In this document: in pieces, positions 2,613 to 53,932 of the stretch | How the letters are laid out: every line of letters begins with the position of its first letter | Numbering within the stretch: position 1 is the stretch's first letter | NCBI GenBank assembly: GCA_964464405.1 | Contig: CAYXFX010000003.1 | Coordinates: forward strand, 6,410-70,409 | Length of the DNA stretch: 64,000 nucleotides | Direction: 5' to 3' | DNA from: an uncultured Candidatus Saccharibacteria bacterium | GTDB taxonomy: Bacteria > Patescibacteriota > Minisyncoccia > UBA11713 > 2-01-FULL-45-33 | Notes under the pieces: generated by a model | The model's database searches: none | Seen by the model: only the letters and a program-made list of their open reading frames with translations | Told to the model about the DNA's origin: nothing | Position numbers and translations under genes: made by a program

Positions 2613-2726
2613 ATTAAAATAACTCCTATTCTAATAACAGAGTACTTTTTTAAAAAATTTTTGTAAAGAAGAAAGTTAAAGAAGAAGATTTTAGAAGAGT
2701 GAAAGGGGTGTATGTTGAAAATTCAG

Positions 2727-2758
2727 GCGATCGCCTTTATTTCTGACATTAGATTTTT
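2727..2758. promoter_or_regulatory. Copy 1 of the GCGATCGCCTTTATTTcTGACATtAGATTTTT motif (half-palindrome)
   Basis: About 32-nt match to the motifs at 52757-52800 and 53367-53400. Confidence 0.4.
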
Positions 2759-5095: not shown

Positions 5096-5112
5096 CCAAG
5101 CCACCCGTCTCC

Positions 5113-5150
5113 ACCCCTTACTAAGGGGGAAGGGGCTGGGGAAAGGGGTC
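5113..5150. repeat. GC-rich palindromic element, copy A (forms the 3' tail of the DUF559 gene)
   Basis: ccccttaCtaagggggaaggggctggggaaaggggtct; 36/37 identical to 5517-5553. Confidence 0.6.
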
Positions 5151-5435
5151 TGTAATTGATTTAATTTTTTCTAAAACACCATCAATCTTTTCAAAAACAC
5201 TTTGATTTAAAACTCGAATTGTTCTAATTCCAAGCGATTTCATAAACCTTTTTCTTTCATTGTCATACAACTTGTTTTCCAGAACTGCGTGTTGTTCACC
5301 GTCTAGTTCAACAACAAGCTTTAATTCTGGACAATAAAAATCAGCAACATATAAAATTTGTTCCGCATTGGTTAAATTGTTCCGTAAAATTCTACGTTTA
5401 TTTATCTGGGATTTTTTATTGAAAATTTTTGTCAT
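5121..5435 (-). CDS. DUF559 / Vsr-fold endonuclease-domain protein (104 aa)
   Basis: LRNNLTNAEQILYVADFYCPELKLVVELDGEQH...ERKRFMKSLGIRTIRVLNQSV matches the DUF559 signature. The C-terminal ...DPFPQPLPP is encoded by the GC-rich repeat. Confidence 0.7.
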   Translation of the reverse strand: MTKIFNKKSQINKRRILRNNLTNAEQILYVADFYCPELKLVVELDGEQHAVLENKLYDNERKRFMKSLGIRTIRVLNQSVFEKIDGVLEKIKSITDPFPQPLPP

Positions 5436-5502: not shown

Positions 5503-6414
5503 TTATTTCCCCTTCCCCCTTAGTAAGGGGGAAGGGGCTGGGGAAAGGGGTCTCATTTTCCCATGAAACGCCTTGTGCACCTCGTGAAGTTGTTTGTCCG
5601 TAAAGTGAGTATAAATTTGGGTTGTTGAAATATTTGCATGGCCCAACATAGACTGCACGGAGCGAAGGTCGGCGCCATTTTGCAAAAGATCCGTCGCAAA
5701 AGCATGGCGCAGGACATGAGGGGTGACTTTTTTTACGATTCCCGCCTGCACAGCGTATTTTTTTATCATCCGTTGAATCGAGCGGGGAGTCATTGGGAAA
5801 AGAAGATCGTTTTCAATGTCCCCACGCTTTTCTAAATAATTATTTATCGCACTTTTGGCTCTGTCCGAAATAAACACAACGCGGATTTTCCCGCCCTTTC
5901 CGCGCACAGCAAATTCTCCGCTACGCAAGCTTACGTCGTCATTTTTTAAATTTGCAAGCTCCGAAATGCGAAGTCCGGTTGAAAAGAAGAGCTCTAAAAT
6001 TGCGCGGTCTCGAATCGATTTATTAGAGCCGCCTTCGGCGGAAGCCGAAGGAGCAGAAAGCAACCTCTCCAAATCCGCATGATCTAAAAGATCAAGATTC
6101 CTTTCTTTAAGTTTTGCAAGTTCAATTTTTTCGGCATCCAGGGATTCAATATTTTTTTTGGAAAGATATTTAAGAAACATCCTTAGTGCGATCACGTGGT
6201 AATTTTGGGTAGATTTATCTAAATTTGCGCGGTTTAAATGAAGCCTGTACTGCCTTACAAGCTCTTCCGAAATATCGGCAGGGGACTTAATTTTTGAAAA
6301 TTCCAAAAACTTCTTTAAATATCTGTCGTAATTTTCAACCGTCTTTATCGCCCGCCCTTTTTCAATTTCTAAATATTCAAGAAATTCTTTTTTAAGTGTG
6401 TCCAGATTAGCCAT
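5503..6414 (-). CDS. Tyrosine site-specific recombinase, XerC/XerD family
   Basis: C-terminal catalytic region LRHAFATDLLQNGADLRSVQSMLGHANISTTQIYTH. The last ~15 aa (RPLSPAPSPLLRGKGK) are encoded by the GC-rich palindromic element. Confidence 0.85.
   Translation of the reverse strand: MANLDTLKKEFLEYLEIEKGRAIKTVENYDRYLKKFLEFSKIKSPADISEELVRQYRLHLNRANLDKSTQNYHVIALRMFLKYLSKKNIESLDAEKIELAKLKERNLDLLDHADLERLLSAPSASAEGGSNKSIRDRAILELFFSTGLRISELANLKNDDVSLRSGEFAVRGKGGKIRVVFISDRAKSAINNYLEKRGDIENDLLFPMTPRSIQRMIKKYAVQAGIVKKVTPHVLRHAFATDLLQNGADLRSVQSMLGHANISTTQIYTHFTDKQLHEVHKAFHGKMRPLSPAPSPLLRGKGK
5509..5553. repeat. GC-rich palindromic element, copy B (ccccttccccc-ttagtaa-gggggaagggg + ctggggaaaggggtct)
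   Basis: 11 to 14-bp perfect stem; direct repeat of 5113-5150. Confidence 0.6.
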
Positions 6415-6431
6415 AATTTAATTATAAAATA

Positions 6432-6496
6432 TTTTGCGACGTTTTAGAATGTTGCAAAATATTTTAGTTTTTTGCGACGTTTTAGAATGTTGCAAA
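6432..6496. promoter_or_regulatory. Two perfect tandem 28-bp repeats (ttttgcgacgttttagaatgttgcaaaa) with a 9-bp spacer, in the xerC <-> rpsO divergent intergenic region; candidate operator pair
   Basis: Exact duplication. Each unit is an imperfect palindrome (ttttgc...gcaaaa). The second unit overlaps a TTGCAA-N17-GATAAT promoter for rpsO. Confidence 0.45.
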
Positions 6497-6536
6497 ACGT
6501 TTGCGTTTTTTAGATAATAATGATACTATATTTTCT

Positions 6537-19936: not shown

Positions 19937-20680
19937 ATGAGAAGAAAAAAATTTTTGGGACAAAATTTTTTAAATAAGAAAAAGATTTTGGAAGAAATGG
20001 CGCGCGTAGCAAAACTTTCAAAAAAAGATGTTGTGCTTGAAGTCGGAGCGGGACTGGGTTCGCTTACAAAAATTTTGGCCGCACGAGCAAAAAAAGTGAT
20101 TGCCGTAGAAAAAGATCGCGAACTAATTCCTTTTTTGAAAGAAAAATTCAGTAAAGAAAAACATGTTGAAATTATCGAGGGTGACATTTTAAAATTTGAA
20201 AATTTTAAATTGAAAATTGGAAATTTTAAACTAGTCGCCAACATCCCTTACTACATCACTGGAAACTTTTTGCGAAAGTTTTTATCCGATAATAAACTCC
20301 GCCCTCAAGAGATGGTAATTATGATTCAAAAAGAAGTCGCGGATAGAATTTTGGCTCGCGATAAAAAAGAATCGCTCCTTTCAATTTCCGTTAAAGCTTA
20401 CGGGAAACCGGAGTTTGTCCGAAAAATATCGCGCGGAAATTTTTCTCCGCCGCCAAAAGTTGATTCGGCAATTATAAAAATATCCGGAGTTTCGAATAAA
20501 TGGTTTTTTAAAAATAAAATAAACGAAGAAAAGTTTTTTGAAATTTTGCGCCTCGCTTTCCAAAAAAAAAGAAAAATGCTCCGCGCATCGATCGGCAAAA
20601 TTATTTCCCTTCCCGAAAAGTTTACAACAAAGCGACCCGAAAAACTTTCACTTGACGACTGGGGTGAAATTTTGAAATAA
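19937..20680 (+). CDS. rsmA: 16S rRNA (adenine1518/1519-N6)-dimethyltransferase
   Basis: FLGQNFL...VLEVGAGLGSLT...ANIPYYIT motifs (KsgA). Confidence 0.85.
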   Translation: MRRKKFLGQNFLNKKKILEEMARVAKLSKKDVVLEVGAGLGSLTKILAARAKKVIAVEKDRELIPFLKEKFSKEKHVEIIEGDILKFENFKLKIGNFKLVANIPYYITGNFLRKFLSDNKLRPQEMVIMIQKEVADRILARDKKESLLSISVKAYGKPEFVRKISRGNFSPPPKVDSAIIKISGVSNKWFFKNKINEEKFFEILRLAFQKKRKMLRASIGKIISLPEKFTTKRPEKLSLDDWGEILK

Positions 20681-27685: not shown

Positions 27686-28639
27686 ATGGACGACCAAAAA
27701 CAAAAAGACATATTAGAAACTTACGCGAATTTGCCAGCTGATTTGCAAAACGCACTTTTCGCGCCGCAAACTACGTCCGCAATACGAGAAATTGGAAAAA
27801 AGCACGAACTTACTTTAGATAAAGTCGGAGTTTTGGGAGATGAAACCGGGGCTGTAATGATGGGGCTTGCTCCGCTTAACGAATTTATTAAAAATCTTTC
27901 CATAAAACTCGAGGTGGACCGCACGAAAGCGCGTTCGATTGCAGAAGATATAAACGCGCAGATTTTTAAACCTGTTAGAGAATCATTAAAACAAGTTCAC
28001 CACGTTGTTTCTACAACAGAACCGACTCAAGGCGCCTCTAAGGAAATACCCCCTCCTACTCCCCCTTATAAAGTGGGAGATAATCAGTTTTCCCCTCCTT
28101 TACAAGGAGGGGCCGGGGAGGTAATAACGACCAAACCAGAGGAAAAACTTGAAAGAGAAGTCGTTCCAAAAAGCGAAACCAAAAAAATTCCCCCGCTTCC
28201 CAAAGAAATGATTGACGGGCTTAAATCTAAAATTCCCTCATTTATTGGGGGCAGTTCAGACTCTCCGAAAACCGTAACTTTTGAGCAATCAACAGTTGGT
28301 GGAGAAATTAAAAAACCCGAGCCTCCTGAAAATTTGCCTGTAGAAATTGTTTCCCCGCCGGCCTCCTTGAAGTCCGACTTCAAATCCCAAAAGAAGTCGG
28401 ACTTCATCCCAGCCGGCGAACCAACAATTTTTGCCAAAAAACTGCCGGAGGAGGAACCTTTGGTAATAAAGCCCATGCCCAACCGATTCGGCATGAGCGC
28501 CGCAGAGCCTTCCCAAACTGCTTCGCTGCAATCAGAGTTAGAAAAAGAATTAGGCGGCTCCATCCGTAGAGGAACAGCATCTCCGGACATTCCGCGCCCA
28601 CCCAAAAAAAACGATCCGTATAGAGAACCGATCGAGTAA
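27686..28639 (+). CDS. Pro-rich hypothetical protein carrying in-frame palindromic repeat insertions
   Basis: Conserved-looking N-terminal domain, then a low-complexity Pro-rich region that includes the GC-rich elements (28047-28121) and the KSDF palindromes (28369-28405). Confidence 0.5.
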   Translation: MDDQKQKDILETYANLPADLQNALFAPQTTSAIREIGKKHELTLDKVGVLGDETGAVMMGLAPLNEFIKNLSIKLEVDRTKARSIAEDINAQIFKPVRESLKQVHHVVSTTEPTQGASKEIPPPTPPYKVGDNQFSPPLQGGAGEVITTKPEEKLEREVVPKSETKKIPPLPKEMIDGLKSKIPSFIGGSSDSPKTVTFEQSTVGGEIKKPEPPENLPVEIVSPPASLKSDFKSQKKSDFIPAGEPTIFAKKLPEEEPLVIKPMPNRFGMSAAEPSQTASLQSELEKELGGSIRRGTASPDIPRPPKKNDPYREPIE

Positions 28640-31618: not shown

Positions 31619-31660
31619 CCACCTCTTCCACCCCTTTACGAAAAGGGGTTTGGGAGAGGC
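31619..31660. repeat. Diverged copy of the GC-rich palindromic element immediately after the VirB4 stop
   Basis: ccacctcttccacccctttacgaaaaggggtttgggagagg would read PPLPPLYEKGFGRG in the VirB4 frame. Confidence 0.4.
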
Positions 31661-31696
31661 AATAACAATGATAAAATTAGATTAAGATAAATAATA

Positions 31697-35525: not shown

Positions 35526-35526
35526 A

Positions 35527-35703
35527 AAAGCCGGGGGCGTTCGACGGCCCCCGTAAGGAGAAAAAAATAAAAATTTTTTTCTTTCTTTTTTTATTTTTTC
35601 ACATTAATTCCCGCCATAATATGGCGGAAAAAAACACATCAACCTCCCAGGTTTAGAACAACATCCGACCACCTCCTTTCTGATAATCCGCACCTCATAT
35701 CCC
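35527..35703 (-). ncRNA. Candidate small RNA (about 175 nt) with its own consensus promoter and an intrinsic terminator
   Basis: Promoter P3 on the minus strand (tgtcaa 35731-35736 / attata 35709-35714 in plus coordinates). Internal hairpin ccgccauauuauggcgg. Terminator cgggggccgucgaacgcccccg followed by UUUUUU (35553-35525). No ORF. Confidence 0.35.
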
Positions 35704-35864
35704 ATCTAATTATACTCCTTTTATATGTTTTGTCAAATTATTTGGGCAGAATTGAATTACATGCTTAATTACGAACTGCCGCGCTTCAACAACATTTCAT
35801 AAAGAAAAAAACGGCTTAAAATAAAGCGCTTTTGTGAACTTTTACACAAAAGAGCCATAAACGC

Positions 35865-35892
35865 TTGACAAACTTCTACAAAGGAGTATAAT
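35865..35892 (+). promoter_or_regulatory. Consensus promoter P2 (TTGACAAAC..AAAGGAGTATAAT), divergent from P3
   Basis: TTGACA-N16-TATAAT with the same extended motif as P1 and P3. Confidence 0.5.
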
Positions 35893-35903
35893 GCTATTTA
35901 GTT

Positions 35904-36590
35904 AAGTTGAAATAACGACTTAACCGAAAGGGGTGGTATGGAATATGGGCAAAAACTAAAATAATAGCCCGAACCACAACCACTTCAAGGTTTCGCCCTT
36001 TAGGCGGACAAGTTTGATAAAAAAGTCATGGGTGGTTCCTCTCATCCCGCCGAAAGGCAGGCAAGCTAGAGAGGAGACTAGGGGATAATGTGACCCCTCG
36101 CCTCCTCTTTAAAGAGGAACAAGATATGCGAGATATTCTCGCAGCGCTCAAGGGCGCTAGGTTAATCGCTAAAACCTACGCCGCGGAGCAAAGGATAGCC
36201 CACTATCTTTTGCCGAACGGTCAGGTTGCGGAGGTTACCCGGCGGGTTAGGCCCAAAGAGCGCAAAAATATCCTGGTAGCCCGTCCCAGGTTGCGCTAAA
36301 TAGCGCGTAAAAATGAAGGCTTGCGGGTTTGTGTGTTCCTGCATAGGTGAGCCAGAAATCATCTAAAAATTAGAACACTCCTCGGGGCGGCGGTTAGCCC
36401 TGATAGGAAGTCAACGCACTTCCGACTTCCATCAAAATTCATTTTAATGCTAAAAATTAAAACGGATTTTAATGGGAGTAGGTGAGCCTGAGTGCTTTGC
36501 ACAAGCGGAAGCTAAGAGTTGTCTGCAAGGTGATTAACTCCGGGCTTACGTAATCGTCCACCCACCGCTCTCTTAGCCCTTTTCAAAATA
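35904..36590 (+). ncRNA. GC-rich, densely structured non-coding region; candidate stable RNA(s), possibly including RNase P RNA (P4-like strands AGCCCG at 36283-36288 and ACUCCGGGCUUA at 36540-36551)
   Basis: GC content far above flanks. Chain of hairpins including a GAAA tetraloop (gccGAAAggc). 3' motif aACUCCGGGCUUA resembles the RNase P CR-V ACAGAANCCGGCUUA; AUAGGUGAGCCAGAAAUC resembles AUAGGGCAGG..GCCAGGUAAC. rnpA is 2 kb away. ORFs in the track here look spurious. Confidence 0.3.
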
Positions 36591-36611
36591 AAAAAAATTT
36601 AAGGAGGAAAA

Positions 36612-36848
36612 ATGTTAAATCAGAAGCTTAGTTTGGTGTTGGCAGGTTTGTTGTCAATTTGGTTTCTTTGTTTGGGGCTTGCGATCCTCACCCGCCAGCA
36701 CAGTTGGTTTCTTCGTTTTTCTCGCCGCCAGGCAGCCAGACCATTTCGCTGGATCTGGCGCCACTGGCATACGCAGATTACCTGGGCGCTCATCGGTGCA
36801 GGCGTCCTCCTCTATTATCTCGTTTCCACCAACCGCATTGCTCCTTGA
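36612..36848 (+). CDS. Small two-TM membrane protein (78 aa) with strong SD (AAGGAGG) and a downstream terminator; GC-rich
   Basis: AAGGAGG 7 nt upstream of ATG; hydrophobic-RW rich-hydrophobic architecture; intrinsic terminator at 36950-36983. Confidence 0.35.
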   Translation: MLNQKLSLVLAGLLSIWFLCLGLAILTRQHSWFLRFSRRQAARPFRWIWRHWHTQITWALIGAGVLLYYLVSTNRIAP

Positions 36849-36949
36849 AGCAATGCCCCTACCAAAGTTTTGTATGCAATCAGTGTTCTATAAGTACGCT
36901 CATATTAATAAAAAATTTTGGTAGGATTAAAAAAGGTTATGACCGCAAC

Positions 36950-36983
36950 CGCGCCAAGCAACAGCTTCGGCGCGATATTTTTT
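36950..36983 (+). terminator. Rho-independent terminator (cgcgccaagc-aaca-gcttcggcgcg + TATTTTTT)
   Basis: 10-bp GC-rich stem with a tetraloop, then a T-run. Confidence 0.5.
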
Positions 36984-37092
36984 AAATAAATCGAGATGTT
37001 GATTTTTCACAAAAAACAAGTTAAGCTCTTGTAGGTAAAAAAGAGAAAAGGAGAATAAGACGTTTAAAAAACTAAATAATCAGCTCGAAAAA

Positions 37093-37407
37093 GTGGGTAT
37101 GATTCTAAATCATATTTTTGATGATATTTGCGGTGTAGAGCATAAAGAACAGGTCGGCCAAAAAGAAAACTTCTATCAATATGTGTCTTTTAGTATTATT
37201 TTTTTGTATTCATCGATATGCATAGCCTCAACAATAGTTTTGTTCTGTATTCCGATTTTTAGGTTAAAGACGAATTCCTCAATACAAAATTTTTACTTCG
37301 ACAACATGTACTGGATAATCCCATTGACGATGCCGACCGGATGGATTATCTCAAAACAACTTAACGCAAAACTTTGGGCTTTTATAAAAACAAAATACAA
37401 ATCCTAA
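37093..37407 (+). CDS. Hypothetical membrane protein (104 aa)
   Basis: ORF followed by terminator aatctcgcc-aaa-ggcgagatt + ATTTTTT (37405-37432). Confidence 0.35.
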   Translation: MGMILNHIFDDICGVEHKEQVGQKENFYQYVSFSIIFLYSSICIASTIVLFCIPIFRLKTNSSIQNFYFDNMYWIIPLTMPTGWIISKQLNAKLWAFIKTKYKS

Positions 37408-37450
37408 TCTCGCCAAAGGCGAGATTATTTTTAAAAAAAATACTTTATTT

Positions 37451-37921
37451 CTATAAATTCAGCGGTTTAATTACGACTCGGCGGCCCATTCCTTCTCCCG
37501 TGCTTTCGGTAGAAATGTCGGGATATTCTTGGAGAACCGTGTGTACGATTCTTCGCTCGTATGCATTCATCGGGCGCATTTCGATCGGCTTTTTAAAATA
37601 TCGTACGCGCTGGGCATGCATGCGCGCCATATCTTTAATCTCCTCCACATGTTTTTTGTGGTAATCGTTTACGTCAATTAAAAATCTTATGTCTGTTTCT
37701 CCATATTTTTTTTCGACAATTCGGCGCACAACATGATTAAGCGCCGCTAAATTCTGTCCGCCTTCCCCAATCAAAAGCGGCGCTTCGTCTGATTTAAGAA
37801 TAAACCAGCTCTCTTCCGCACCCTCCTGAAATTCCAACGAGCTTAAAACGCCGAGTTTATTTAATATTTCGGATATCGTATTTCTTACAAATTCTACTTT
37901 TTCTTGTGTGTTTTCTGCCAT
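37451..37921 (-). CDS. Jag/KhpB-like R3H domain RNA-binding protein
   Basis: KH-like and R3H region (ERRIVHTVLQEYPDISTESTGEG); canonical rpmH-rnpA-yidC-jag cluster. Confidence 0.75.
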   Translation of the reverse strand: MAENTQEKVEFVRNTISEILNKLGVLSSLEFQEGAEESWFILKSDEAPLLIGEGGQNLAALNHVVRRIVEKKYGETDIRFLIDVNDYHKKHVEEIKDMARMHAQRVRYFKKPIEMRPMNAYERRIVHTVLQEYPDISTESTGEGMGRRVVIKPLNL

Positions 37922-37941
37922 TTAGAAGCAGATGTGTGAGT

Positions 37942-38643
37942 TTAAACCTTTCTCCGCACCATCGCTTCGTGAATAATAGCAAAAATATTCATTGATGTCC
38001 AATAAAGTGAAACTGCAGCTGGTAGTTTAAATCCTAAAAAGAAGATCATAACGGGAAAAACATACATCATCTGTTTCTGCATCATAACCGCCATGTCTGC
38101 TTTCTTTTTTACATCTCCCGCAGGTTGCACGGTCGCAAGTCTAATTTGCAAAAATTGGGATATCGCCGCAATAGCCGCAAGCCCAATACTTGCCTCTGTT
38201 AATGAGATAAAACCTAAAAACACTAGATTAATATTTTCCGGAATACTCAAAAAATAATAAACTTCTTGCGCTTTAAAAGGAATCCCGTTTATAAACACAC
38301 GATACATCGCAAAAAGAATGGGCAACTGGATTATCAACATAAAAAAACCGGAAAACGGGTTTATTCCGTGTATCTTATAGAGCTCCATTAGTGCGCGCGC
38401 TTGCTCGTTTTTGTCCTTTTTCTCTTCGTTTATTTTTTTAATTTGCGGCTCAATTTCTTTCATTATTTTTTGTGTACGCAACATCTTGTGCGTCATCGGA
38501 AATGTTAATATCTTTATTAACACTGTAAGTAAAATTACAGCCAGCCCCAAATCGTGCCCCGGAAGAAATGTAGTCAAAACCAATAGACCGTTTAGAATCG
38601 GTCTATAAAAAACCTGTGTATAGATTAAGCTAATAAATGACAT
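37942..38643 (-). CDS. yidC: Membrane protein insertase YidC (short form)
   Basis: Conserved YidC/Oxa1 core TMs (LIKILTFPMTHKMLRTQKIMKEIEPQIKKI...YKIHGINPFSG). Confidence 0.85.
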   Translation of the reverse strand: MSFISLIYTQVFYRPILNGLLVLTTFLPGHDLGLAVILLTVLIKILTFPMTHKMLRTQKIMKEIEPQIKKINEEKKDKNEQARALMELYKIHGINPFSGFFMLIIQLPILFAMYRVFINGIPFKAQEVYYFLSIPENINLVFLGFISLTEASIGLAAIAAISQFLQIRLATVQPAGDVKKKADMAVMMQKQMMYVFPVMIFFLGFKLPAAVSLYWTSMNIFAIIHEAMVRRKV

Positions 38644-38968
38644 TTAGTAGATTTAGTATATCATTTTTTAAATCTTTAAAGGAAGGAGGTGGCGACTTTT
38701 CGATTTTCATAAAAAAAACAATTTTCATTCCTGATTTAATGTCTCCAATTTTTCCCCGCACAATTTCGCTCATTTGGCGCCTAAGTTTGTTTCTCAAAAC
38801 TGCACCGCCTCGTTTTTTCGAAACACTTGCGATAAAAGCAAATTTTTTTTCTTTTGTCTCAGCAGAGCAAAAACGCATAATAACATATTTACCGCGCAAA
38901 AACCTAGATCTCTTCTTAAAAAAATGATCTAGTTCCTTTCTATTTAACCGGAATTCTTTTTTTAGCAC
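38630..38968 (-). CDS. rnpA: Ribonuclease P protein component
   Basis: FAFIASVSKKRGGAVLRNKLRRQMSEIVR (RNR motif region). The start is GTG (complement of 38966-38968), 2 nt after the rpmH stop. Confidence 0.8.
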   Translation of the reverse strand: MLKKEFRLNRKELDHFFKKRSRFLRGKYVIMRFCSAETKEKKFAFIASVSKKRGGAVLRNKLRRQMSEIVRGKIGDIKSGMKIVFFMKIEKSPPPSFKDLKNDILNLLNVIY

Positions 38969-38970
38969 AC

Positions 38971-39105
38971 TTATATTACAATTTTACGCCTACCCTTACT
39001 TCTTCTCCTTGAAAGCACATTTCTGCCAGTTTTGGATCTCATTCTTTTTAAAAAACCGTGTGTGCGCGATCTCTTCTTTTTTTTGGGTTGGTATGTTTGC
39101 GACAT
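38971..39105 (-). CDS. rpmH: 50S ribosomal protein L34 (44 aa)
   Basis: Reverse translation gives [44 protein letters not shown]. Not in the ORF track because it is under 60 aa. Confidence 0.8.
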
Positions 39106-39213
39106 ATAAGGATTCTACAATGTTTTTTTTATTTTGCAATATTCACAACGGGTCCACAACATATTAACATTAAAACTAAATACATGTTTAGAAAATAGAT
39201 TTATAGTTATCAT
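39106..39213. other. rpmH-dnaA intergenic region (oriC-associated)
   Basis: Divergent transcription switch (jag-yidC-rnpA-rpmH leftward, dnaA-dnaN rightward); AT-rich with partial DnaA-box-like 9-mers (ttcacaacg, gtccacaac). Confidence 0.4.
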
Positions 39214-40575
39214 ATGATGATTAATGACGAATTGTGGAAAAAGGCGTTGGGAGGAATAGAAACTGAAATTTCAAGAGCTAATTTTTTAACTTGGTTTAAA
39301 AACACGCACATAATAGAACACTCTGAAAACACAATTACGATTGGGGTTCCATCAAATTTTGTTAAAGAGTGGTTGGAAAATAAATACCATAAATACATTT
39401 TGAAATCCTTAAGAAATATCTCTCCTGATATTAGAGTTATAAATTATACTATTGCTTCAGAAAACTTAAAAATTGATCAAAAATTAAAAATTCAGAAAGA
39501 ATCACCTCCTCCACCAGAAGAACAGCTCGAATTTAAAGATTTCAATCTCGACCCAAACACCAACCTAAATCCCAGATATACATTAGAAACATTCATTGTG
39601 GGCCCTTTTAATGAGCTTGCCTACGCAGCGGCGCTCGAAGTAATAAAAAACCTCGGCAAGGCCCTAAATCCTTTATTTATTTACGGAGGAGTTGGGTTGG
39701 GAAAAACCCATTTACTTCAAGCAATAGGAAACACTATTCATATAAAAGACCCTAGAAAGCGCGTTTACTACATTACATCTGAAAAATTCAGTAACGAAAT
39801 TGTATCATCAATTCAAAACCACAATATTCACAACTTTAAAGAAAAATACCGTGATTATGACTTACTAATTATTGATGATGTACAGTTTTTCGGTGGAAAG
39901 GTTAAAACTCAAGAAGAGTTTTTTTACACATTTAACACTTTGTACGAATCTGGGAAACAAGTCGTATTTTCTTCCGATAGGCCGCCGAAATCAATTCCTG
40001 ACATAGAAGAGCGGTTGCGCTCACGTCTGGAAGCAGGAGCTTATATTGATATTTCAGAACCAGAATACGAAACAAGACTTGCGATATTAAAATCAAAAAC
40101 ACTCGAAAAAAAACTTGATATTTCCGAAAAGGTGTTAGAAGTAATAGCTTCTGTTGTCCAAAAAAATATCAGGGAGTTGGAAGGTGCTTTAAATACCATA
40201 CACATGCAGTCCGTTTATCATAATAGGATTCTTACTCCTGATGAAGCAAAGGTAATACTAAGTAAAAATACACGCCCAAAAATAAATATAACACCTGCAC
40301 AAATTATTAAAAATGTCGCTGAATTTTATGATATTCCGGAACGCATGATGTTCGAGCGAACACGCAAAACCGAAATCGTAAAACCGCGACAAATAGCTAT
40401 GTTTTTAATTAGAGAAGATCTTGGCGGCTCATATCCTTTTATTGGACAAAAGTTTAATGGAATGGACCATACAACAGCAATCCATGCTTATGAAAAAATA
40501 ATTAATGATTTAAAAAAGAATTCAACACTTGAGGAAGAGTTGAGGAGTATTAGGGAAAAATATCAGGTTAAATAA
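39214..40575 (+). CDS. dnaA: Chromosomal replication initiator DnaA
   Basis: AAA+ Walker A GGVGLGKTHLLQAIGN; C-terminal DNA-binding domain (RQIAMFLIREDLGGSYPFIGQKFNGMDHTTAIHAYEKI). Confidence 0.95.
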   Translation: MMINDELWKKALGGIETEISRANFLTWFKNTHIIEHSENTITIGVPSNFVKEWLENKYHKYILKSLRNISPDIRVINYTIASENLKIDQKLKIQKESPPPPEEQLEFKDFNLDPNTNLNPRYTLETFIVGPFNELAYAAALEVIKNLGKALNPLFIYGGVGLGKTHLLQAIGNTIHIKDPRKRVYYITSEKFSNEIVSSIQNHNIHNFKEKYRDYDLLIIDDVQFFGGKVKTQEEFFYTFNTLYESGKQVVFSSDRPPKSIPDIEERLRSRLEAGAYIDISEPEYETRLAILKSKTLEKKLDISEKVLEVIASVVQKNIRELEGALNTIHMQSVYHNRILTPDEAKVILSKNTRPKINITPAQIIKNVAEFYDIPERMMFERTRKTEIVKPRQIAMFLIREDLGGSYPFIGQKFNGMDHTTAIHAYEKIINDLKKNSTLEEELRSIREKYQVK

Positions 40576-40719
40576 TTATCCACTGTATAATCACAATATA
40601 ATAAATAAAAGATATTAAAATTTTCATTTAAAAATAAATAAAAATTTTAATATCCACATATTAACAAAATTAGTAATAATAATTTTTTATTCAAATATAA
40701 ATTAAATTAATAAACAAAA
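40576..40719. other. Candidate oriC: very AT-rich dnaA-dnaN spacer with DnaA boxes
   Basis: TTATCCACT at 40577-40585 and ATATCCACA at 40652-40660 (consensus TTATCCACA); DUE-like A/T tracts. Confidence 0.45.
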
Positions 40720-41820
40720 ATGAAAATTATTTGTGCCAATCAAAATATTAAAGAAATTCTTTCCATTGCAGAAAGAAATGTTTCAAAAAATCAAACTCTT
40801 CCTATTTTAAATTCTGTTTTTCTTAATGCCGAAGATGGAAAATTACAAGTAAGAGCGACAAATTTAGAAACCGCAATTGAAGCGAATGTTTTCTGTACTG
40901 TAAAAGAAAAAGGATCTTTAGTAATTCCAGCAAAGATTTTATATACTTATCTATCAAATATTAACGATGAACAAATTACACTGCAAAGCCAAAAAAGTAA
41001 TTTATTCATAAAAACAAATAATTCTGAAACAGTAATTAGGGGGATGTCTGTAGATGAATTTCCATTATTTCCGAAAATTGATGTGATAAACTCTTTTTCG
41101 ATGCCATGCGATCTTTTAAAAGAATCATTATCACAAGTTGTAAGTGCGTCTAGCCAATCAGAAATTAAACCAGAACTTGCTAGTGTTTTGTTTAAAATTT
41201 TTAAAAATTCAGTTAAATTTGCAGCAACCGATTCTTTTAGGTTGGCTGAAAAAACTATAGTTTCTAAGACAATCAACTCCGATAAACAATATAATTTTTT
41301 AGTACCACAAAAATCTGTACATGAAATTTTGAGGATTTTAGTTAATAATGAAATTATAAATGTTGGTTTTGGTAAAAATCAAATGATACTTGAAACCAAA
41401 CAACTAAAATTTATTTCACGTCTTACAGACGGCGTATTTCCGGACTATGAACAAATTATTCCTAAAACTTTCAAAACAGACGTTTTAATTACCCATAATT
41501 CAATTTTAAAAAATTTAAAAATAGCTAGTATTTTCGTCGGCAAATTAAACGAAATTAATCTAAATTTTGAGCCACATAAAAAATTAGTTTTAATTTCCGC
41601 ATCACATCCGGAAGCGGGCGAACATTCTTCCGAAGTCAGTGCGAATATTGAAGGAGAAGAAGTAAATATAAAATTTAATTATAAATATTTACTAGACGGT
41701 ATTTCACAGATAAACAGCGAGTATATTTCTTTTAATTTAAACGGCAGCGATTCCCCTCTTTTAATAAAAGGAAAAGGAGACTCATCTTTTATTTATTTAG
41801 CGATGCCGATGAGAGTTTAA
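40720..41820 (+). CDS. dnaN: DNA polymerase III beta sliding clamp
   Basis: 366 aa, three-domain clamp architecture; follows dnaA. Confidence 0.9.
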   Translation: MKIICANQNIKEILSIAERNVSKNQTLPILNSVFLNAEDGKLQVRATNLETAIEANVFCTVKEKGSLVIPAKILYTYLSNINDEQITLQSQKSNLFIKTNNSETVIRGMSVDEFPLFPKIDVINSFSMPCDLLKESLSQVVSASSQSEIKPELASVLFKIFKNSVKFAATDSFRLAEKTIVSKTINSDKQYNFLVPQKSVHEILRILVNNEIINVGFGKNQMILETKQLKFISRLTDGVFPDYEQIIPKTFKTDVLITHNSILKNLKIASIFVGKLNEINLNFEPHKKLVLISASHPEAGEHSSEVSANIEGEEVNIKFNYKYLLDGISQINSEYISFNLNGSDSPLLIKGKGDSSFIYLAMPMRV

Positions 41821-52699: not shown

Positions 52700-52756
52700 A
52701 ACCCATTCTTTTTACCCACTTTATTATTTTTTTATTCACATTTTTTCAATGTTCGA

Positions 52757-52780
52757 AATAAAAGCGATCGCCTTTATTTT
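52757..52780. promoter_or_regulatory. 24-bp palindrome AAATAAAAGCGATCGCCTTTATTT overlapping the -35 (TTGACA 52780-52785) of the regulator gene; candidate operator
   Basis: 23/24 self-complementary. The same palindrome occurs at 53367-53390, and a half-site at 2727-2758. Confidence 0.5.
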
Positions 52781-52814
52781 TGACATAAGATTTTTGGGTT
52801 GATAAAGTTAAGTA

Positions 52815-53366
52815 ATGGCTAGATATAGCATAGTAAAAGAAAAAATTTTATTACTTTTGTTGGGAGGAGCAGCTTTACTGTTGGCATATAACCCCAAAAA
52901 ACAACTTAGAGTAATCGAACAAATTTCTAAAGAGTGGAAAAAAATTAACAGAAGAAAACTTTATTACTTTATAAATCAATTTAAATATGAAAGGCTTGTA
53001 GATTTTAGAGAAAACAAAGACGGAACAATAAAAATGGTTTTAAACGATGATGGCAAAAAAAGGGCCTTAGTTTATAGCTTAGATCAGTTGGAACTTAAAA
53101 AAGAACGGGTTTGGGATAAAAAGTGGCGCATTGTAATATTTGATATACCCGAAAAGAAAAAAAGAGGCAGAGAAGCACTAAGGTTGAAACTGAAGGAGTT
53201 GGGGTTTAAGGAATTACAGAAAAGTATTTTTGCTTTTCCATATAAATGTAAGGATGAAATAGATTTTGTAGTCGAAGTGTTTGAGTTGAGGCAATACGTG
53301 AGGTTTATTGAAACTTCAAATCTTTTCCACGACGCAGATTTAAGACTTCATTTCAATCTTGTCTAA
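52815..53366 (+). CDS. PaaX-like transcriptional regulator (N-terminal wHTH + W-x2-W-R-hhhF-DIPE middle domain), short form
   Basis: KEKILLLLLGGAALL...; WDKKWRIVIFDIPEKKKRGREALRLKLKELGFKELQKSIFAFP resembles the PaaX middle domain. Confidence 0.45.
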   Translation: MARYSIVKEKILLLLLGGAALLLAYNPKKQLRVIEQISKEWKKINRRKLYYFINQFKYERLVDFRENKDGTIKMVLNDDGKKRALVYSLDQLELKKERVWDKKWRIVIFDIPEKKKRGREALRLKLKELGFKELQKSIFAFPYKCKDEIDFVVEVFELRQYVRFIETSNLFHDADLRLHFNLV

Positions 53367-53390
53367 AATAAAAGCGATCGCATTTATTTT
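53367..53390. promoter_or_regulatory. Second copy of the 24-bp GCGATCGC-centred palindrome, 1 nt after the regulator stop and upstream of tsaE
   Basis: AAATAAAAGCGATCGCATTTATTT (23/24 self-complementary), followed by TTGGAC...TATAAT promoter-like hexamers. Confidence 0.5.
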
Positions 53391-53449
53391 GGACATCAAC
53401 AAAAGTTTCTTAAAATATAAAAAGTATAATTTGTAAAAAATATAAGAAA

Positions 53450-53932
53450 ATGAAAATTACGACAAAAAGTGGTAAAGAAACAAAAAAATTTGGCGCAAAA
53501 ATTGCAAAAGAAATTTTAAAAGAAAAAAAATGGGGGAAAGCTGTTGTTGTAAGTTTGGAGGGTGATCTTGGCGCTGGCAAAACAACCTTTACACAGGGAT
53601 TTGCAGAGGGTTTGGGTATCCACGAAAAAATCCAAAGCCCGACTTTTGTGATTTTAAAAGTGTATTCAATTACCCCTCCCAGCCCTCCCCTTGTAAAGGG
53701 GAGGAGTTCCAAAAAAATCGGGAGGTTTTCAAAATTAATCCATGTCGACGCTTACCGCTTGCGATCAAAAGATTTTAAAGCGCTTAATTGGGAAGATTTT
53801 ATTCGCGATGAAAAAAATATAATTTTAGTCGAGTGGGGAAATAAAATAAAAAAAATCTTACCGAAAAATTCGATAAGAATAAAATTCGAACACGGAAAAA
53901 ATTTTAACCAGCGCATGATAAAAATCATTTAA
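53450..53932 (+). CDS. tsaE: tRNA threonylcarbamoyladenosine biosynthesis protein TsaE, carrying an in-frame palindromic-element insertion
   Basis: P-loop GDLGAGKTTFTQG, SPTF...DAYRL. The region between them is about 17 aa longer than in E. coli YjeE and is encoded by the GC-rich palindrome (ITPPSPPLVKGRSS). Confidence 0.75.
   Translation: MKITTKSGKETKKFGAKIAKEILKEKKWGKAVVVSLEGDLGAGKTTFTQGFAEGLGIHEKIQSPTFVILKVYSITPPSPPLVKGRSSKKIGRFSKLIHVDAYRLRSKDFKALNWEDFIRDEKNIILVEWGNKIKKILPKNSIRIKFEHGKNFNQRMIKII
53672..53706. repeat. GC-rich palindromic element inside tsaE (acccctcccagccctcccc-ttgtaa-aggggaggag)
   Basis: 9-bp perfect stem cctcccctt/aaggggagg; about 80% identical to the reverse complement of 5509-5553. 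Confidence 0.55.

What the first reader, a model, noticed from the sequence alone, without database searches (positions are those of the whole stretch)
53641..53720. Rickettsia-RPE-like GC-rich palindromic element family inserted in-frame into protein-coding genes
A GC-rich palindromic module with core CCCCTT-N3-AAGGGG, flanked by ccccag/cccc runs, recurs at least six times in this AT-rich window. In every case it sits in the same orientation and reading frame relative to the host gene. It encodes ITPPSPPLVKGRSS inside tsaE (53672-53706), between the P-loop and the conserved DAYRL block; that region is about 17 aa longer than in E. coli YjeE. It encodes RPLSPAPSPLLRGKGK as the last residues of the Xer recombinase (5509-5553), and DPFPQPLPP as the tail of the DUF559 protein (5113-5150). 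It encodes PPPTPPYKVGDN and SPPLQGGAGEV in the Pro-rich T4SS-cluster ORF (28047-28121). It would read PPLPPLYEKGFGRG directly after the VirB4 stop (31619-31660). This mirrors the Rickettsia palindromic elements, which are selfish hairpins that insert into ORFs. It also explains the odd proline-rich C-terminal tails often seen on DUF559 proteins. I am not aware of this having been described for a CPR-like genome. Coordinates given are for the tsaE copy.
Basis: partly seen in the sequence, partly recalled or inferred. Interest (0 to 1): 0.8.

Follow-up and report, generated by a model that had tools for sequence, protein, structure and literature searches.

The report
Triplex-motif (BoxC-type) repeats inside genes
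The GC-rich hairpins are real copies of an already described bacterial repeat (BoxC / "intrastrand triplex motif"), here sitting in frame inside essential genes of a tiny CPR genome, and in every locus examined genes for the uncharacterised DUF559 nuclease are flanked by such repeats, which gives a testable candidate for what spreads them.

Summary
The window holds four solid copies (tsaE 53668-53711; DUF559 3' end 5104-5151; Xer tail 5506-5553; Pro-rich ORF 28085-28129) and two degenerate relatives. The claims of one orientation and one reading frame are wrong: copy E is inverted and all three codon phases occur.

The element is not Rickettsia-RPE-like. It is a 35-45 nt module: pyrimidine arm, 3-nt loop, purine arm, short linker, then a G-rich strand that mirrors the purine arm. 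This is the BoxC / PIT / TMECO "intrastrand triplex motif" known from E. coli and cyanobacteria. More than 120 near-identical copies were found across at least eight phyla.

Two points go beyond the papers I found. First, outside E. coli the element sits in frame in loops and linkers of essential genes: TsaE, KsgA, PolA and TrmD in CPR, and LeuRS, ValRS and AlaRS elsewhere. Orthologues without the insert exist. In tsaE the element DNA is far better conserved than the host gene. Second, all 18 DUF559 loci inspected, from diverse phyla including E. coli ycjD, carry such elements next to the gene. DUF559 is related to a homing endonuclease. How the element spreads is still inferred.

The parts
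53668..53711 (-). Element copy C, in frame inside tsaE. Hairpin 53684-53704 (9-bp stem CCTCCCCTT/AAGGGGAGG, loop 3). On the minus strand it is followed by linker GCTG and third strand GGAGGGGTA, which mirrors the purine arm. Read on the gene strand it encodes TPPSPPLVKGRS.
   Evidence: CM 44.7 bits, E=5.5e-11. DNA fold dG -9.5, z -2.6. Mirror triads 9/9. Only 1/36 nt differs from the orthologous copy in L219, against 127/444 in the rest of the gene.
53450..53932 (+). tsaE host gene (160 aa). The insert occupies residues about 73-86, in a coil between strands 69-73 and 95-100.
   Evidence: Pfam TsaE E=6.7e-32. Alignment A1 with insert-free orthologues. AF2 model mean pLDDT 87, with the insert region at 55-76.
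5506..5553 (+). Element copy B. It has a 13-bp stem hairpin at 5509-5537 plus a G-tract third strand. It forms the last 15 codons of Xer (RPLSPAPSPLLRGKGK) and lies upstream of the DUF559 gene.
   Evidence: CM 38.1 bits. dG -15.8, z -3.7. 38 nt are 97% identical to copy A. The Xer orthologue in L206 stops before the element.
5104..5151 (+). Element copy A. It overlaps the 3' end and stop codon of the DUF559 ORF (tail DPFPQPLPP). The hairpin at 5114-5128 is only 6 bp.
   Evidence: CM 39.7 bits. The fold is weak (z -1.3). It is a direct repeat of B.
5121..5435 (-). DUF559 (Vsr-like PD-(D/E)XK nuclease) gene bracketed by copies A and B. It lacks about 31 conserved residues (W..LRNRQL.G.KFRRQ..IG.Y) and is probably degenerate.
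   Evidence: Pfam PF04480 E=4.6e-16, matching only profile positions 43-106. Alignment A3.
5503..6414 (-). Xer-type tyrosine recombinase whose reading frame runs into element copy B.
   Evidence: Pfam Phage_integrase E=9e-44. BLASTP against the L206 orthologue.
28085..28129 (+). Element copy E, in sense orientation inside the Pro-rich ORF of the T4SS-like cluster. Hairpin 28092-28112 (CCCCTCCTT/AAGGAGGGG), linker CC, third strand GGGGAGGTA. It encodes SPPLQGGAGEV.
   Evidence: CM 39.3 bits. Mirror triads 9/9. dG -9.6, z -2.9.
28044..28087 (-). Copy D, a degenerate inverted partner of E with an interrupted hairpin. It encodes PPPTPPYKVGDN.
   Evidence: CM 14.1 bits, E=0.057. dG -6.5, z -3.0.
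27686..28639 (+). Host ORF of D and E (317 aa, Pro-rich, no Pfam family), within a T4SS-like gene cluster (PrgI-like, VirB4/TraG-like).
31619..31664 (+). Copy F, a hairpin-only relative (ACCCCTTT acga AAAGGGGT, extendable to about 16 bp) directly after the VirB4-like stop codon. It has no clear mirror third strand and no T-run.
   Evidence: CM 9.7 bits, E=1.1, not significant. dG -13.2, z -5.2.

Best explanation
The window carries CPR (Paceibacterota-type; the same genes are on record in NCBI assembly GCA_016176325.1) members of the BoxC / PIT / TMECO family of G/C-rich 'intrastrand triplex motifs'.

Anatomy. Each module is about 35-45 nt. It has a pyrimidine arm, a free 3-nt loop, a purine arm, a 2-4 nt linker and a G-rich third strand that mirrors the purine arm (G opposite G, T or A opposite A). 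As a single strand it can fold into a hairpin. For the E. coli member it folds into a purine-motif triplex in vitro (shown by others). The four G-tracts could alternatively form a quadruplex.

What is shown here:
- The modules are dispersed repeats that are nearly identical across at least eight phyla.
- They have almost no stop codons in any frame and encode flexible Pro/Gly-rich peptides. In gene-dense genomes they persist at gene 3' ends and, in frame, in surface loops and interdomain linkers of even essential proteins.
- Gains and losses occur in multiples of three bases.
- The DNA of the tsaE copy is far more conserved than its host gene.

What is inferred:
- They behave as selfish or neutral DNA whose sequence is kept uniform by a DNA-level process: recent insertion, gene conversion, or selection on the structure.
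- The best candidate for that process is the DUF559 nuclease. Its genes were found embedded among these elements in all 18 loci inspected. It may act as an element-specific nicking or homing-type endonuclease, by analogy with RAYT and REP, or with free-standing homing endonucleases.
- I give about 0.4 to this last step. The identity of the element and its in-frame residence I hold at 0.9 or more.
For: Identity of the element:
- Hairpins with Y/R arms appear at all four solid copies.
- The third strand mirrors the purine arm 9/9 in copies C and E even though their arms differ (AAGGGGAGG and AAGGAGGGG). Copy B has one mismatch.
- The same covariation holds in 123 cross-phylum instances: AAGGGGAGGG/GGGTGGGGTA, AAGGGGGGG/GGGGGGGTT, AAGGGGAGAGGG/GGGTGAGGGGTT. 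The mean triad fraction is 0.89 against 0.76 with swapped tails.
- The proteobacterial version GGGAGAGGGTTAGGGTGAGGG is the published TMECO/BoxC and HPG1 sequence (PMC4666352; 10.1101/032615).

Distribution:
They came from Cyanobacteria, Planctomycetota, Verrucomicrobiota, Nitrospirota/Nitrospinota, Proteobacteria, Hydrogenedentes, Desulfuromonadales and Paceibacterota.

In-frame residence:
- The TsaE loop is hypervariable, and insert-free orthologues exist.
- Pfam-confirmed hosts in CPR are KsgA, PolA and TrmD.
- Hosts in other phyla are LeuRS, ValRS, AlaRS, GH38, GH116, CHAT and STAND proteins, mostly between annotated domains.
- The TsaE insert lies in a low-pLDDT coil.
- Indels between close relatives measure 24, 27, 30, 60 and 99 nt.

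DNA-level constraint:
- Between the window and L219, the element shows 1/36 nt differences and 0/11 synonymous changes.
- The rest of tsaE shows 127/444 nt differences and 35/99 synonymous changes.

DUF559 link:
- The window gene is bracketed by copies A and B. The Microcoleus locus L124 has an element on one side and three tandem copies on the other.
- By eye, all 16 further DUF559 loci, chosen only by protein homology, have hairpin plus G-tail elements within about 200 nt of the gene. They include E. coli ycjD, Neisseria, Deinococcus, Sphingomonas, Azospirillum, Sinorhizobium, Photobacterium, Picosynechococcus PCC 7002 and a spirochaete.
- A strict triplex detector finds 15 elements in 8 kb near the genes (1.88/kb). 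The rest of the same loci gives 0.23/kb and 555 kb of control CPR DNA gives 0.023/kb.
- In L208 the only three GC-containing hairpins in 4.4 kb all sit at the DUF559 gene.
- A DUF559 profile hits the homing endonuclease I-Bth0305I (PDB 3R3P) at E=3.3e-5.
- The DUF559 cassette lies beside the orthologous xer gene in the window and in L206, but in opposite orientations.
Against: - No target-site duplication and no clean empty/filled site pair was found. The polymorphisms seen in Microcoleus are tandem copy-number changes.
- Copy number in the window is modest: 4-6 per 64 kb. In 555 kb of other CPR DNA it is low.
- The orientation of the elements around DUF559 is not fixed. Tails face inward, outward, or form direct repeats. 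This does not fit a classical transposon with terminal inverted repeats.
- The window's own DUF559 is internally deleted, so it cannot be the active enzyme here.
- The strict detector confirms flanking elements in only 9 of 16 loci. The rest rest on inspection by eye.
- The detector definitions were written after seeing the data.
- The association could mean that DUF559 genes insert at, or survive next to, these elements, rather than that they mobilise them.
- According to Holder et al., earlier work by Maher and colleagues found no promoter or terminator activity for the E. coli elements. Holder et al. themselves found no link to mobility genes (PMC4666352).
Confidence: 0.7

Rival explanations
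1. The segments are ordinary protein features: Pro/Gly-rich linkers or tails selected at the protein level. The DNA palindromes would be a by-product of CCN and GGN codons.
For: All frames of the element give Pro/Gly-rich peptides, which suit loops. The host ORF 27686-28639 is Pro-rich throughout. The TsaE insert sits in a loop.
Against: The same DNA occurs in intergenic positions (L043, L190, E. coli) and in both orientations and all three frames. The mirror third strand covaries with the stem. The DNA is identical at synonymous sites while the host gene has diverged. The sequences are near-identical across phyla.
Confidence: 0.03
2. The elements are host-selected cis-acting DNA or RNA structures, such as transcription terminators or attenuators, mRNA 3'-end stabilisers, replication pause sites, or a G-quadruplex/hairpin regulatory switch. 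They would not be selfish DNA. Their sequence uniformity would reflect binding of a conserved host factor.
For: Three of the six window copies lie at gene 3' ends. The hairpins are stable. The tsaE copy is conserved at the DNA level. A G4-hairpin-duplex switch was proposed for the E. coli copies (10.1101/032615).
Against: No T-run follows the hairpins. Many copies lie in the middle of essential genes, where termination or pausing would be harmful. Copy number varies between near-identical strains. According to Holder et al., earlier work by Maher and colleagues found no promoter or terminator activity and no in vivo effect on polymerases for the E. coli elements (PMC4666352, introduction).
Confidence: 0.12
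3. The elements are REP/REPIN-like or IS200/IS605-derived hairpins mobilised in trans by a Y1 HUH transposase (RAYT/TnpA) encoded elsewhere in the genome. The DUF559 association would be incidental: both simply accumulate in dispensable spacers.
For: The size, the hairpin, the frequent inverted pairs and the multi-copy dispersal resemble REPs. Only 64 kb of the genome was available.
Against: The elements carry no GTAG or CGTC tag. No Y1 transposase is present among the window ORFs scanned or in the neighbouring gene calls. No recurrent neighbouring gene family was found across 120 loci. DUF559 adjacency is highly specific. In L208 the neighbouring selfish 23S-rRNA-IVP gene has no such hairpins. 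Holder et al. found no transposase near any E. coli copy.
Confidence: 0.08
4. There is no dedicated enzyme. The motifs arise and multiply through replication slippage or template switching at hairpin, triplex or G4 structures, together with ordinary recombination. DUF559 genes are selfish cassettes that home into pre-existing motifs as a target, without driving their spread.
For: All polymorphisms seen between close relatives are local tandem gains or losses of 24-99 nt. Arrays occur in L092, L121, L124 and L221. Holder et al. report motif-associated instability. DUF559 is related to a homing endonuclease. The cassette occurs in both orientations at one orthologous site.
Against: Slippage does not explain dispersal to unrelated sites or near-identity of 40 nt across phyla. 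It also does not explain the lack of synonymous change in an old orthologous insert.
Confidence: 0.3

Closest known systems
BoxC / PIT elements / TMECO G/C-rich class II intrastrand triplex motif (E. coli, cyanobacteria; Holder et al. 2015, PMC4666352), also described as the HPG1/HPG2 G-quadruplex-hairpin-duplex switch (bioRxiv 10.1101/032615)
   Same: The three-block architecture is the same: C-rich arm, G-rich arm and a mirror G-rich third strand with short loops. The length is about 37 nt, the loops are free and the stems conserved. Copies are dispersed, often in inverted pairs. Sequence grades continuously from the E. coli form through the Photobacterium, Azospirillum and cyanobacterial forms to the CPR form. 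Copy number differs between close strains.
   Different: The E. coli copies are reported as exclusively intergenic. Here, and in cyanobacteria, planctomycetes and CPR, many copies lie in frame inside genes, including essential ones. The stems end in TT/AA with a 3-nt loop. The host genome is AT-rich (about 39% GC). No link to DUF559/ycjD was reported in those papers.
Rickettsia palindromic elements (RPE)
   Same: Both are palindromic selfish-looking repeats found in frame inside ORFs of a small genome, at positions that tolerate extra peptide (surface loops). Orthologues without the insert exist.
   Different: From my own knowledge, RPEs are about 100-150 bp and encode 30-50 aa. These elements are 35-45 nt and encode 10-15 aa. 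They have a mirror-repeat third strand and G-tracts, are found across many phyla, and show no evidence of common origin with RPEs.
REP / REPIN elements with their RAYT transposase
   Same: Both are short GC-rich hairpins present in many copies and often paired. A single small nuclease gene sits flanked by the elements, while most elements lie far from it. That is the pattern proposed here for DUF559.
   Different: There is no GTAG or CGTC tag. The candidate enzyme is a Vsr-like PD-(D/E)XK fold (DUF559), not a Y1 HUH transposase. The elements are not confined to extragenic DNA. The orientation of the elements around the gene is not fixed.
Free-standing and intron-borne homing endonucleases of the EDxHD / Vsr-like family (I-Bth0305I, PDB 3R3P)
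   Same: A DUF559 profile matches the catalytic domain (E=3.3e-5). Both are small selfish-looking genes inserted between or within operons (sufB-sufC, the hpa operon, sapF-fabI). Both are flanked by repeated copies of a specific sequence.
   Different: No intron or intein is involved. The presumed target is a repeated structured motif rather than a unique gene sequence. No activity has been demonstrated.

Membership tests
BoxC / PIT / TMECO intrastrand triplex motif | Hairpin made of a pyrimidine-rich 5' arm and a purine-rich 3' arm with a short loop | tested here: met
   Perfect stems of 9-13 bp in copies B, C and E, and 6 bp in A. DNA folding gives dG -9.4 to -15.8 and z -2.6 to -3.7, but only z -1.3 for A.
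BoxC / PIT / TMECO intrastrand triplex motif | A third G-rich block after a 1-6 nt loop that mirrors the purine arm (G*G, T*A or A*A triads) | tested here: met
   C 9/9, E 9/9, B with one mismatch, A only 4 contiguous triads. The strict detector hits 5509-5551, 28092-28123 and 53671-53704. Covariation holds across 123 instances.
BoxC / PIT / TMECO intrastrand triplex motif | Sequence relationship to the described consensus (…CCCTCTCCC…GGGAGAGGG-TTA/CCG-GGGTGAGGG) | tested here: met
   The E. coli ycjD-fabI spacer carries the published sequence. Photobacterium and Azospirillum carry AAGGGGAGGGTTAGGGTGGGG. Cyanobacteria and CPR carry AAGGGGAGGGCTGGGGTGGGG. The tsaE copy aligns to that consensus over 45 positions. 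This is similarity through intermediates, not a formal phylogeny.
BoxC / PIT / TMECO intrastrand triplex motif | Actual triplex formation by the single strand | not testable with these tools
   Shown by CD and NMR only for the E. coli oligonucleotide (PMC4666352). The folding tool used here models hairpins only.
BoxC / PIT / TMECO intrastrand triplex motif | Strictly intergenic location (as reported for E. coli K-12) | tested here: not met
   Copies B, C, D and E, and the end of A, lie inside ORFs. In other genomes the hosts are KsgA, PolA, TrmD, LeuRS, ValRS and AlaRS. This is a property of the E. coli copies rather than a structural definition.
Rickettsia palindromic elements (RPE) | Length of about 100-150 bp with a long imperfect palindrome | tested here: not met
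   The elements span 35-45 nt. The RPE size is from my own knowledge.
Rickettsia palindromic elements (RPE) | In-frame presence in ORFs, with orthologues lacking the insert | tested here: met
Rickettsia palindromic elements (RPE) | Sequence homology to RPE families | not tested
Rfam gave no family hit in the window.
REP / REPIN with RAYT | Conserved GTAG or CGTC tag at one end of the palindrome | tested here: not met
   No such tag is present in the aligned copies.
REP / REPIN with RAYT | A Y1 HUH transposase gene flanked by the elements | tested here: not met
   None was found among the window ORFs scanned with Pfam or in the precomputed gene calls. The rest of the genome was not searched.
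MITE | Terminal inverted repeats with target-site duplication, derived from a parent IS | tested here: inconclusive
   No duplication was visible at the copies or at the indels compared. No close empty-site pair was available.
Intrinsic terminator | GC-rich hairpin followed by a T-run | tested here: not met
   The sequence after each hairpin is G-rich or mixed.
DUF559 (PF04480) Vsr-like endonuclease (gene 5121-5435) | Full-length match including the N-terminal W..LR..L.G.KFRRQ block and the E-x-D-G-x-x-H core | tested here: inconclusive
   The Pfam hit (E=4.6e-16) covers only profile positions 43-106. The core E43/D45/G46/H49 is present, but about 31 conserved residues are missing. The gene is a member by homology and is probably inactive.

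The most novel reading that the evidence does not exclude
DUF559 (E. coli YcjD and its relatives in most bacterial phyla) is the dedicated structure-specific nuclease of the BoxC/PIT/triplex-motif repeats. Its gene resides among its own targets. Its nicking or cleavage drives copying, homogenisation and dispersal of the 40-nt modules, including into the reading frames of essential genes. This would make a repeat-plus-nuclease system analogous to REP/RAYT but built on a Vsr-like homing-endonuclease fold. It would assign a function both to a 30-year-old orphan repeat and to a large domain of unknown function.
Probability: 0.35. Interest if true: 0.85.

Novelty: new variant of a known kind. Interest (0 to 1): 0.65.

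Why it matters
BoxC/PIT/triplex motifs have been known since the 1990s. They occur in hundreds of genomes and are linked to genome instability, yet they have no known function, origin or means of spread.

This window shows three things.
- The family reaches into ultra-small CPR genomes.
- Outside enterobacteria it routinely sits in frame inside essential genes: TsaE, KsgA, PolA, TrmD and three aminoacyl-tRNA synthetases. It is therefore a recurrent source of loop and linker insertions in proteins, and of confusing Pro/Gly-rich tails in annotations.
- DUF559 genes are embedded among these elements wherever I looked.

The third point turns two open questions, what moves these repeats and what DUF559/YcjD does, into one simple experiment in E. 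coli.

On the practical side, gene callers and protein-family alignments should expect these 10-15 aa inserts. The high DNA conservation inside a diverged gene is a useful signature for finding them.

Tried and rejected
- Rfam, gathering threshold on the window and E-value mode on eight element-rich loci: only chance microRNA-hairpin matches.
- tRNA scan of the window: none.
- Clustering of all ORFs within 1.5 kb of 120 cross-phylum copies, looking for a common neighbour gene: only orthologous Microcoleus regions, no shared family.
- tblastn of the window DUF559 against those loci: one hit, L124. I first read this as no association. I then re-read it as the one-gene-to-many-elements pattern and tested it from the DUF559 side.
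- DUF559 in viral contigs: one weak hit, not useful.
- Search for empty and filled sites with target duplications among orthologous Microcoleus loci: only tandem unit gains and losses.
- Search for E. coli genomes lacking ycjD to see an empty site: ycjD is nearly universal. The variant allele in O157:H7 is an island junction, which was not informative.
- K-12 annotation of the ycjD-fabI spacer: no repeat feature is annotated.
- Literature searches by the cyanobacterial/CPR sequence, by encoded peptides, by DUF559, and by CPR plus palindrome terms: nothing relevant. Only the proteobacterial sequence string led to the triplex-motif papers.
- The idea that the G-tail is just a quadruplex motif was replaced by the mirror-repeat (triplex) reading, because the tail covaries with the stem. 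Quadruplex formation is still possible.
- A link to the Shine-Dalgarno/anti-Shine-Dalgarno sequence (AAGGAGG/CCTCCTT in copy E) was considered and dropped as a consequence of purine-rich composition.
Full report
**What is in the window.** The exact core CCCCTT-N3-AAGGGG occurs three times (5114, 5516, 53687) and never in 100 dinucleotide shuffles. A scan for perfect hairpins finds the same class at 5114, 5509, 28092, 31630 and 53684. Reading the flanks shows that the unit is longer than the core. The hairpin is followed on one side by a G-tract tail. Copies at 5114-5151 and 5516-5553 share 38 nt at 97% identity.

A covariance model was built from 34 copies found in other phyla plus the local ones. 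It gives four strong hits in the window:
- C, 53668-53711 (minus strand), 44.7 bits.
- A, 5104-5151 (plus strand), 39.7 bits.
- E, 28085-28129 (plus strand), 39.3 bits.
- B, 5506-5553 (plus strand), 38.1 bits.

There is one marginal hit (D, 28044-28087, minus strand, E=0.057) and one non-significant hit (F, 31625-31664, E=1.1). Nothing else was found. F is still a strong hairpin (z -5.2).

Hosts were confirmed with Pfam: TsaE, a Xer-type recombinase, DUF559 and a VirB4/TraG-like ATPase. The rest of the window is housekeeping DNA around the origin of replication. No transposase was detected among the ORFs scanned.

Orientation is not uniform. A, B, C and D are antisense to their host ORF and E is sense. 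The frame is not uniform either. The central loop base falls in codon phases 2, 0, 1, 2, 2. The peptides look alike because runs of C and G read as Pro and Gly in any frame.

**In-frame insertion is real.**
- In 39 CPR TsaE homologues, the segment between SPTFV and HVDAYR is hypervariable. Several orthologues have no insert (IYHP-HNFIHVDAYR), and others have one or two modules.
- In 69 orthologous loci with DNA, the modal loop is 27 aa. The window has 41 aa.
- Orthologues with related peptides keep the hairpin in their DNA (L139, L138, L165, L190, L219). The stated refutation condition is therefore not met.
- An AlphaFold model (mean pLDDT 87) places the insert in a coil between strands 69-73 and 95-100, with pLDDT 55-76.
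- The Xer orthologue in L206 is 73% identical and stops at HGKRRR. The same element lies about 22 nt downstream of that stop. In the window the frame simply runs into the element, adding 15 aa.
- In other CPR contigs the element lies in frame in KsgA/RsmA (two copies), in the PolA linker and in TrmD (two copies). All three hosts were confirmed with Pfam.

**The DNA of the insert is unusually conserved.** The window and L219 TsaE proteins are 63% identical.
- In the 12 element codons, 1 of 36 bases differs, and none of 11 identical-residue codons has a synonymous change.
- In the rest of the gene, 127 of 444 bases differ, and 35 of 99 identical-residue codons differ.
- L219 also has a second, 24-nt module that the window lacks.

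So the element is held constant, or refreshed, at the DNA level while modules come and go in multiples of three.

**What the element is.** These came from Cyanobacteria (Microcoleus, Chamaesiphon, Tychonema), Planctomycetota, Verrucomicrobiota, Nitrospirota/Nitrospinota, Gamma- and Alphaproteobacteria, Hydrogenedentes, Desulfuromonadales and Paceibacterota. The consensus is CTCCCT-CCCCTT-nnn-AAGGGG-AGGG-CT-GGGGTGGGGT-AA. The loop is free. Stem length changes on both sides together.

The tail is a mirror image of the purine arm, with G opposite G and T or A opposite A:
- AAGGGGAGGG pairs with GGGTGGGGTA.
- AAGGGGGGG pairs with GGGGGGGTT.
- AAGGGGAGAGGG pairs with GGGTGAGGGGTT.

In the window, C and E have different arms, and each has a perfectly matching mirror strand (9/9). 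B has one mismatch.

Searching papers for the proteobacterial form of the tail (GGGTTAGGGTGAGGG) identified the family. It is BoxC, later called PIT elements. Holder et al. 2015 characterised it as TMECO, a G/C-rich class II intrastrand triplex motif. According to that paper:
- the motif is 37 nt long and has 23 copies in E. coli K-12, "always located intergenically";
- it is present in more than 260 genomes and abundant in cyanobacteria;
- it forms a triplex in vitro;
- it is associated with local genome instability;
- it has no associated transposase or integrase.

The same E. coli sequences were also described as a G-quadruplex-hairpin-duplex switch and were again all intergenic. Rfam has no corresponding family. 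The kind of element is therefore known, and the RPE comparison is only an analogy.

**In-frame residence is general outside E. coli.** Of 101 evaluable cross-phylum copies, 40 lie in open frames with at least 60 codons on each side. Another 11 lie at ORF ends. Pfam confirms that the hosts include LeuRS, ValRS, AlaRS, GH38, GH116, a CHAT protease and AAA-WD40 proteins. In most of them the element falls between annotated domains. Between Microcoleus genomes 93-96% identical, copies differ by tandem units or indels of 27, 30, 60 and 99 nt. I found no paper in the library that reports intragenic residence.

**The DUF559 link.** In the window, the DUF559 gene is bracketed by copies A and B. It is itself degenerate, lacking about 31 conserved residues. 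About a third of its homologues end in hairpin-type peptides. In Microcoleus locus L124, a DUF559 gene has one element on one side and three tandem copies on the other.

I then sampled DUF559 genes by protein homology alone:
- eight loci from metagenome and genome assemblies;
- eight loci from annotated replicons: Photobacterium, Deinococcus, E. coli ycjD, Azospirillum, Sphingomonas, Neisseria, Picosynechococcus PCC 7002 and Sinorhizobium.

By inspection, every one has hairpin plus G-tail elements within about 200 nt of the gene, often on both sides. Detector results:

| Detector | Loci with an element near the gene | Near DUF559 | Rest of the same loci | Control CPR DNA |
|---|---|---|---|---|
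| Strict (hairpin plus mirror strand) | 9 of 16 | 1.88/kb (15 in 8 kb) | 0.23/kb | 0.023/kb (555 kb) |
| Relaxed (Y/R hairpin only) | 11 of 16 | 2.6/kb | 0.28/kb | 0.04/kb |

Further observations:
- In L208, the only three GC-containing hairpins in 4.4 kb are at the DUF559 gene. A neighbouring selfish 23S-rRNA-IVP gene has none.
- The cassettes sit in places typical of selfish genes: between sufB and sufC, inside an hpa operon, and between sapF and fabI.
- Beside the orthologous xer gene, the cassette occurs in opposite orientations in the window and in L206.
- A DUF559 profile matches PDB 3HRL and, at E=3.3e-5, the homing endonuclease I-Bth0305I.
- None of the 25 papers that mention DUF559, nor the two papers on the motif, connect DUF559 with these repeats.

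**Limits.**
- No target duplication or clean empty site was found.
- The orientation of the elements around DUF559 varies.
- The detector definitions were written after seeing examples.
- Seven of the 16 loci rest on inspection by eye.
- Association does not give direction. DUF559 could spread the motifs, or it could home into them.
- The covariance model included the window copies.
- The TsaE loci were retrieved with a query that contains the insert, which may slightly enrich for inserts.

**Verdict.** The finding is a real member of a known repeat family, in a new host lineage and with a new habit: in-frame residence in essential genes, which proves to be widespread. The consistent embedding of DUF559 nuclease genes among these motifs is, as far as I could find, unreported. 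It offers a direct experiment on a long-standing orphan repeat and a large domain of unknown function.

Noticed in passing
window 2712-2758, 52749-52795, 53359-53405: A second repeat family. It is a roughly 47-nt AT-rich palindrome centred on GCGATCGC (…AAATAAAGGCGATCGCCTTTATTT…). It sits in intergenic spacers after the H+-PPase gene and on both sides of the PaaX-like gene just upstream of tsaE. It could be an operator or a bidirectional terminator.
   Followed up: no
window 6432-6507: Two tandem 38-nt units (89% identical) in the spacer between xer and rpsO.
   Followed up: no
L192 229-333; L126, L155, L149, L153 TsaE loops; proteins P0005, P0057, P0075, P0084 and locus L125: The same TsaE loop in other CPR genomes carries unrelated palindromes. 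One has a 16-bp stem (CAAGGCGAAACCTTGT). There is also a recurrent 'RHKPYALRHKAYGLR' peptide type, which additionally appears in a second loop near the N-terminus. The loop seems to be a general sink for several hairpin repeat families.
   Followed up: partly
L054 vs L057; L024, L049, L015, L012, L023; L092, L121, L124: In Microcoleus the motif forms tandem arrays with periods of 33, 44 or about 73 nt inside long ORFs. Copy number differs between closely related genomes.
   Followed up: partly
L019, L021, L032, L046, L082, L099, L108 (Microcoleus/Tychonema); Chamaesiphon loci such as L006, L020, L081: In some cyanobacteria the motif sits at the centre of a larger repeat of about 110 nt with its own terminal inverted repeats (TATAGCAATCC…GGATTGCTATA). 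In others it is followed by a conserved tail (…CTACGCAGCAACTCAAATAACTTGT). This suggests compound or nested repeats.
   Followed up: no
L208 3391-3732: A 23S-rRNA-intervening-sequence-protein gene (four-helix-bundle family) lies between separately called N-terminal and C-terminal parts of transketolase in a CPR contig. It is about 1 kb from the DUF559 cassette.
   Followed up: no
L230 (E. coli O157:H7 strain 9234) 1-2600: In O157:H7 the BoxC-rich spacer upstream of fabI borders a different gene set (a TetR regulator, a truncated RND adaptor and IS1203) instead of ycjD-sapF. This fits the reported instability at these motifs.
   Followed up: no
window 37451-41820 and 35526-37450: A replication-origin neighbourhood: rnpA, yidC and an R3H/Jag-like gene on the minus strand, then dnaA and dnaN. 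GC falls to 0.28 at 40-42 kb. No tRNA gene was found in the whole 64 kb. The stretch 35.5-37.4 kb has only short ORFs.
   Followed up: no
window 19937-20680 vs L052 2203-3078: The window's own KsgA/RsmA (247 aa) has no insert. The Paceibacterota KsgA in L052 (292 aa) carries two motif copies. This is another presence/absence case.
   Followed up: partly
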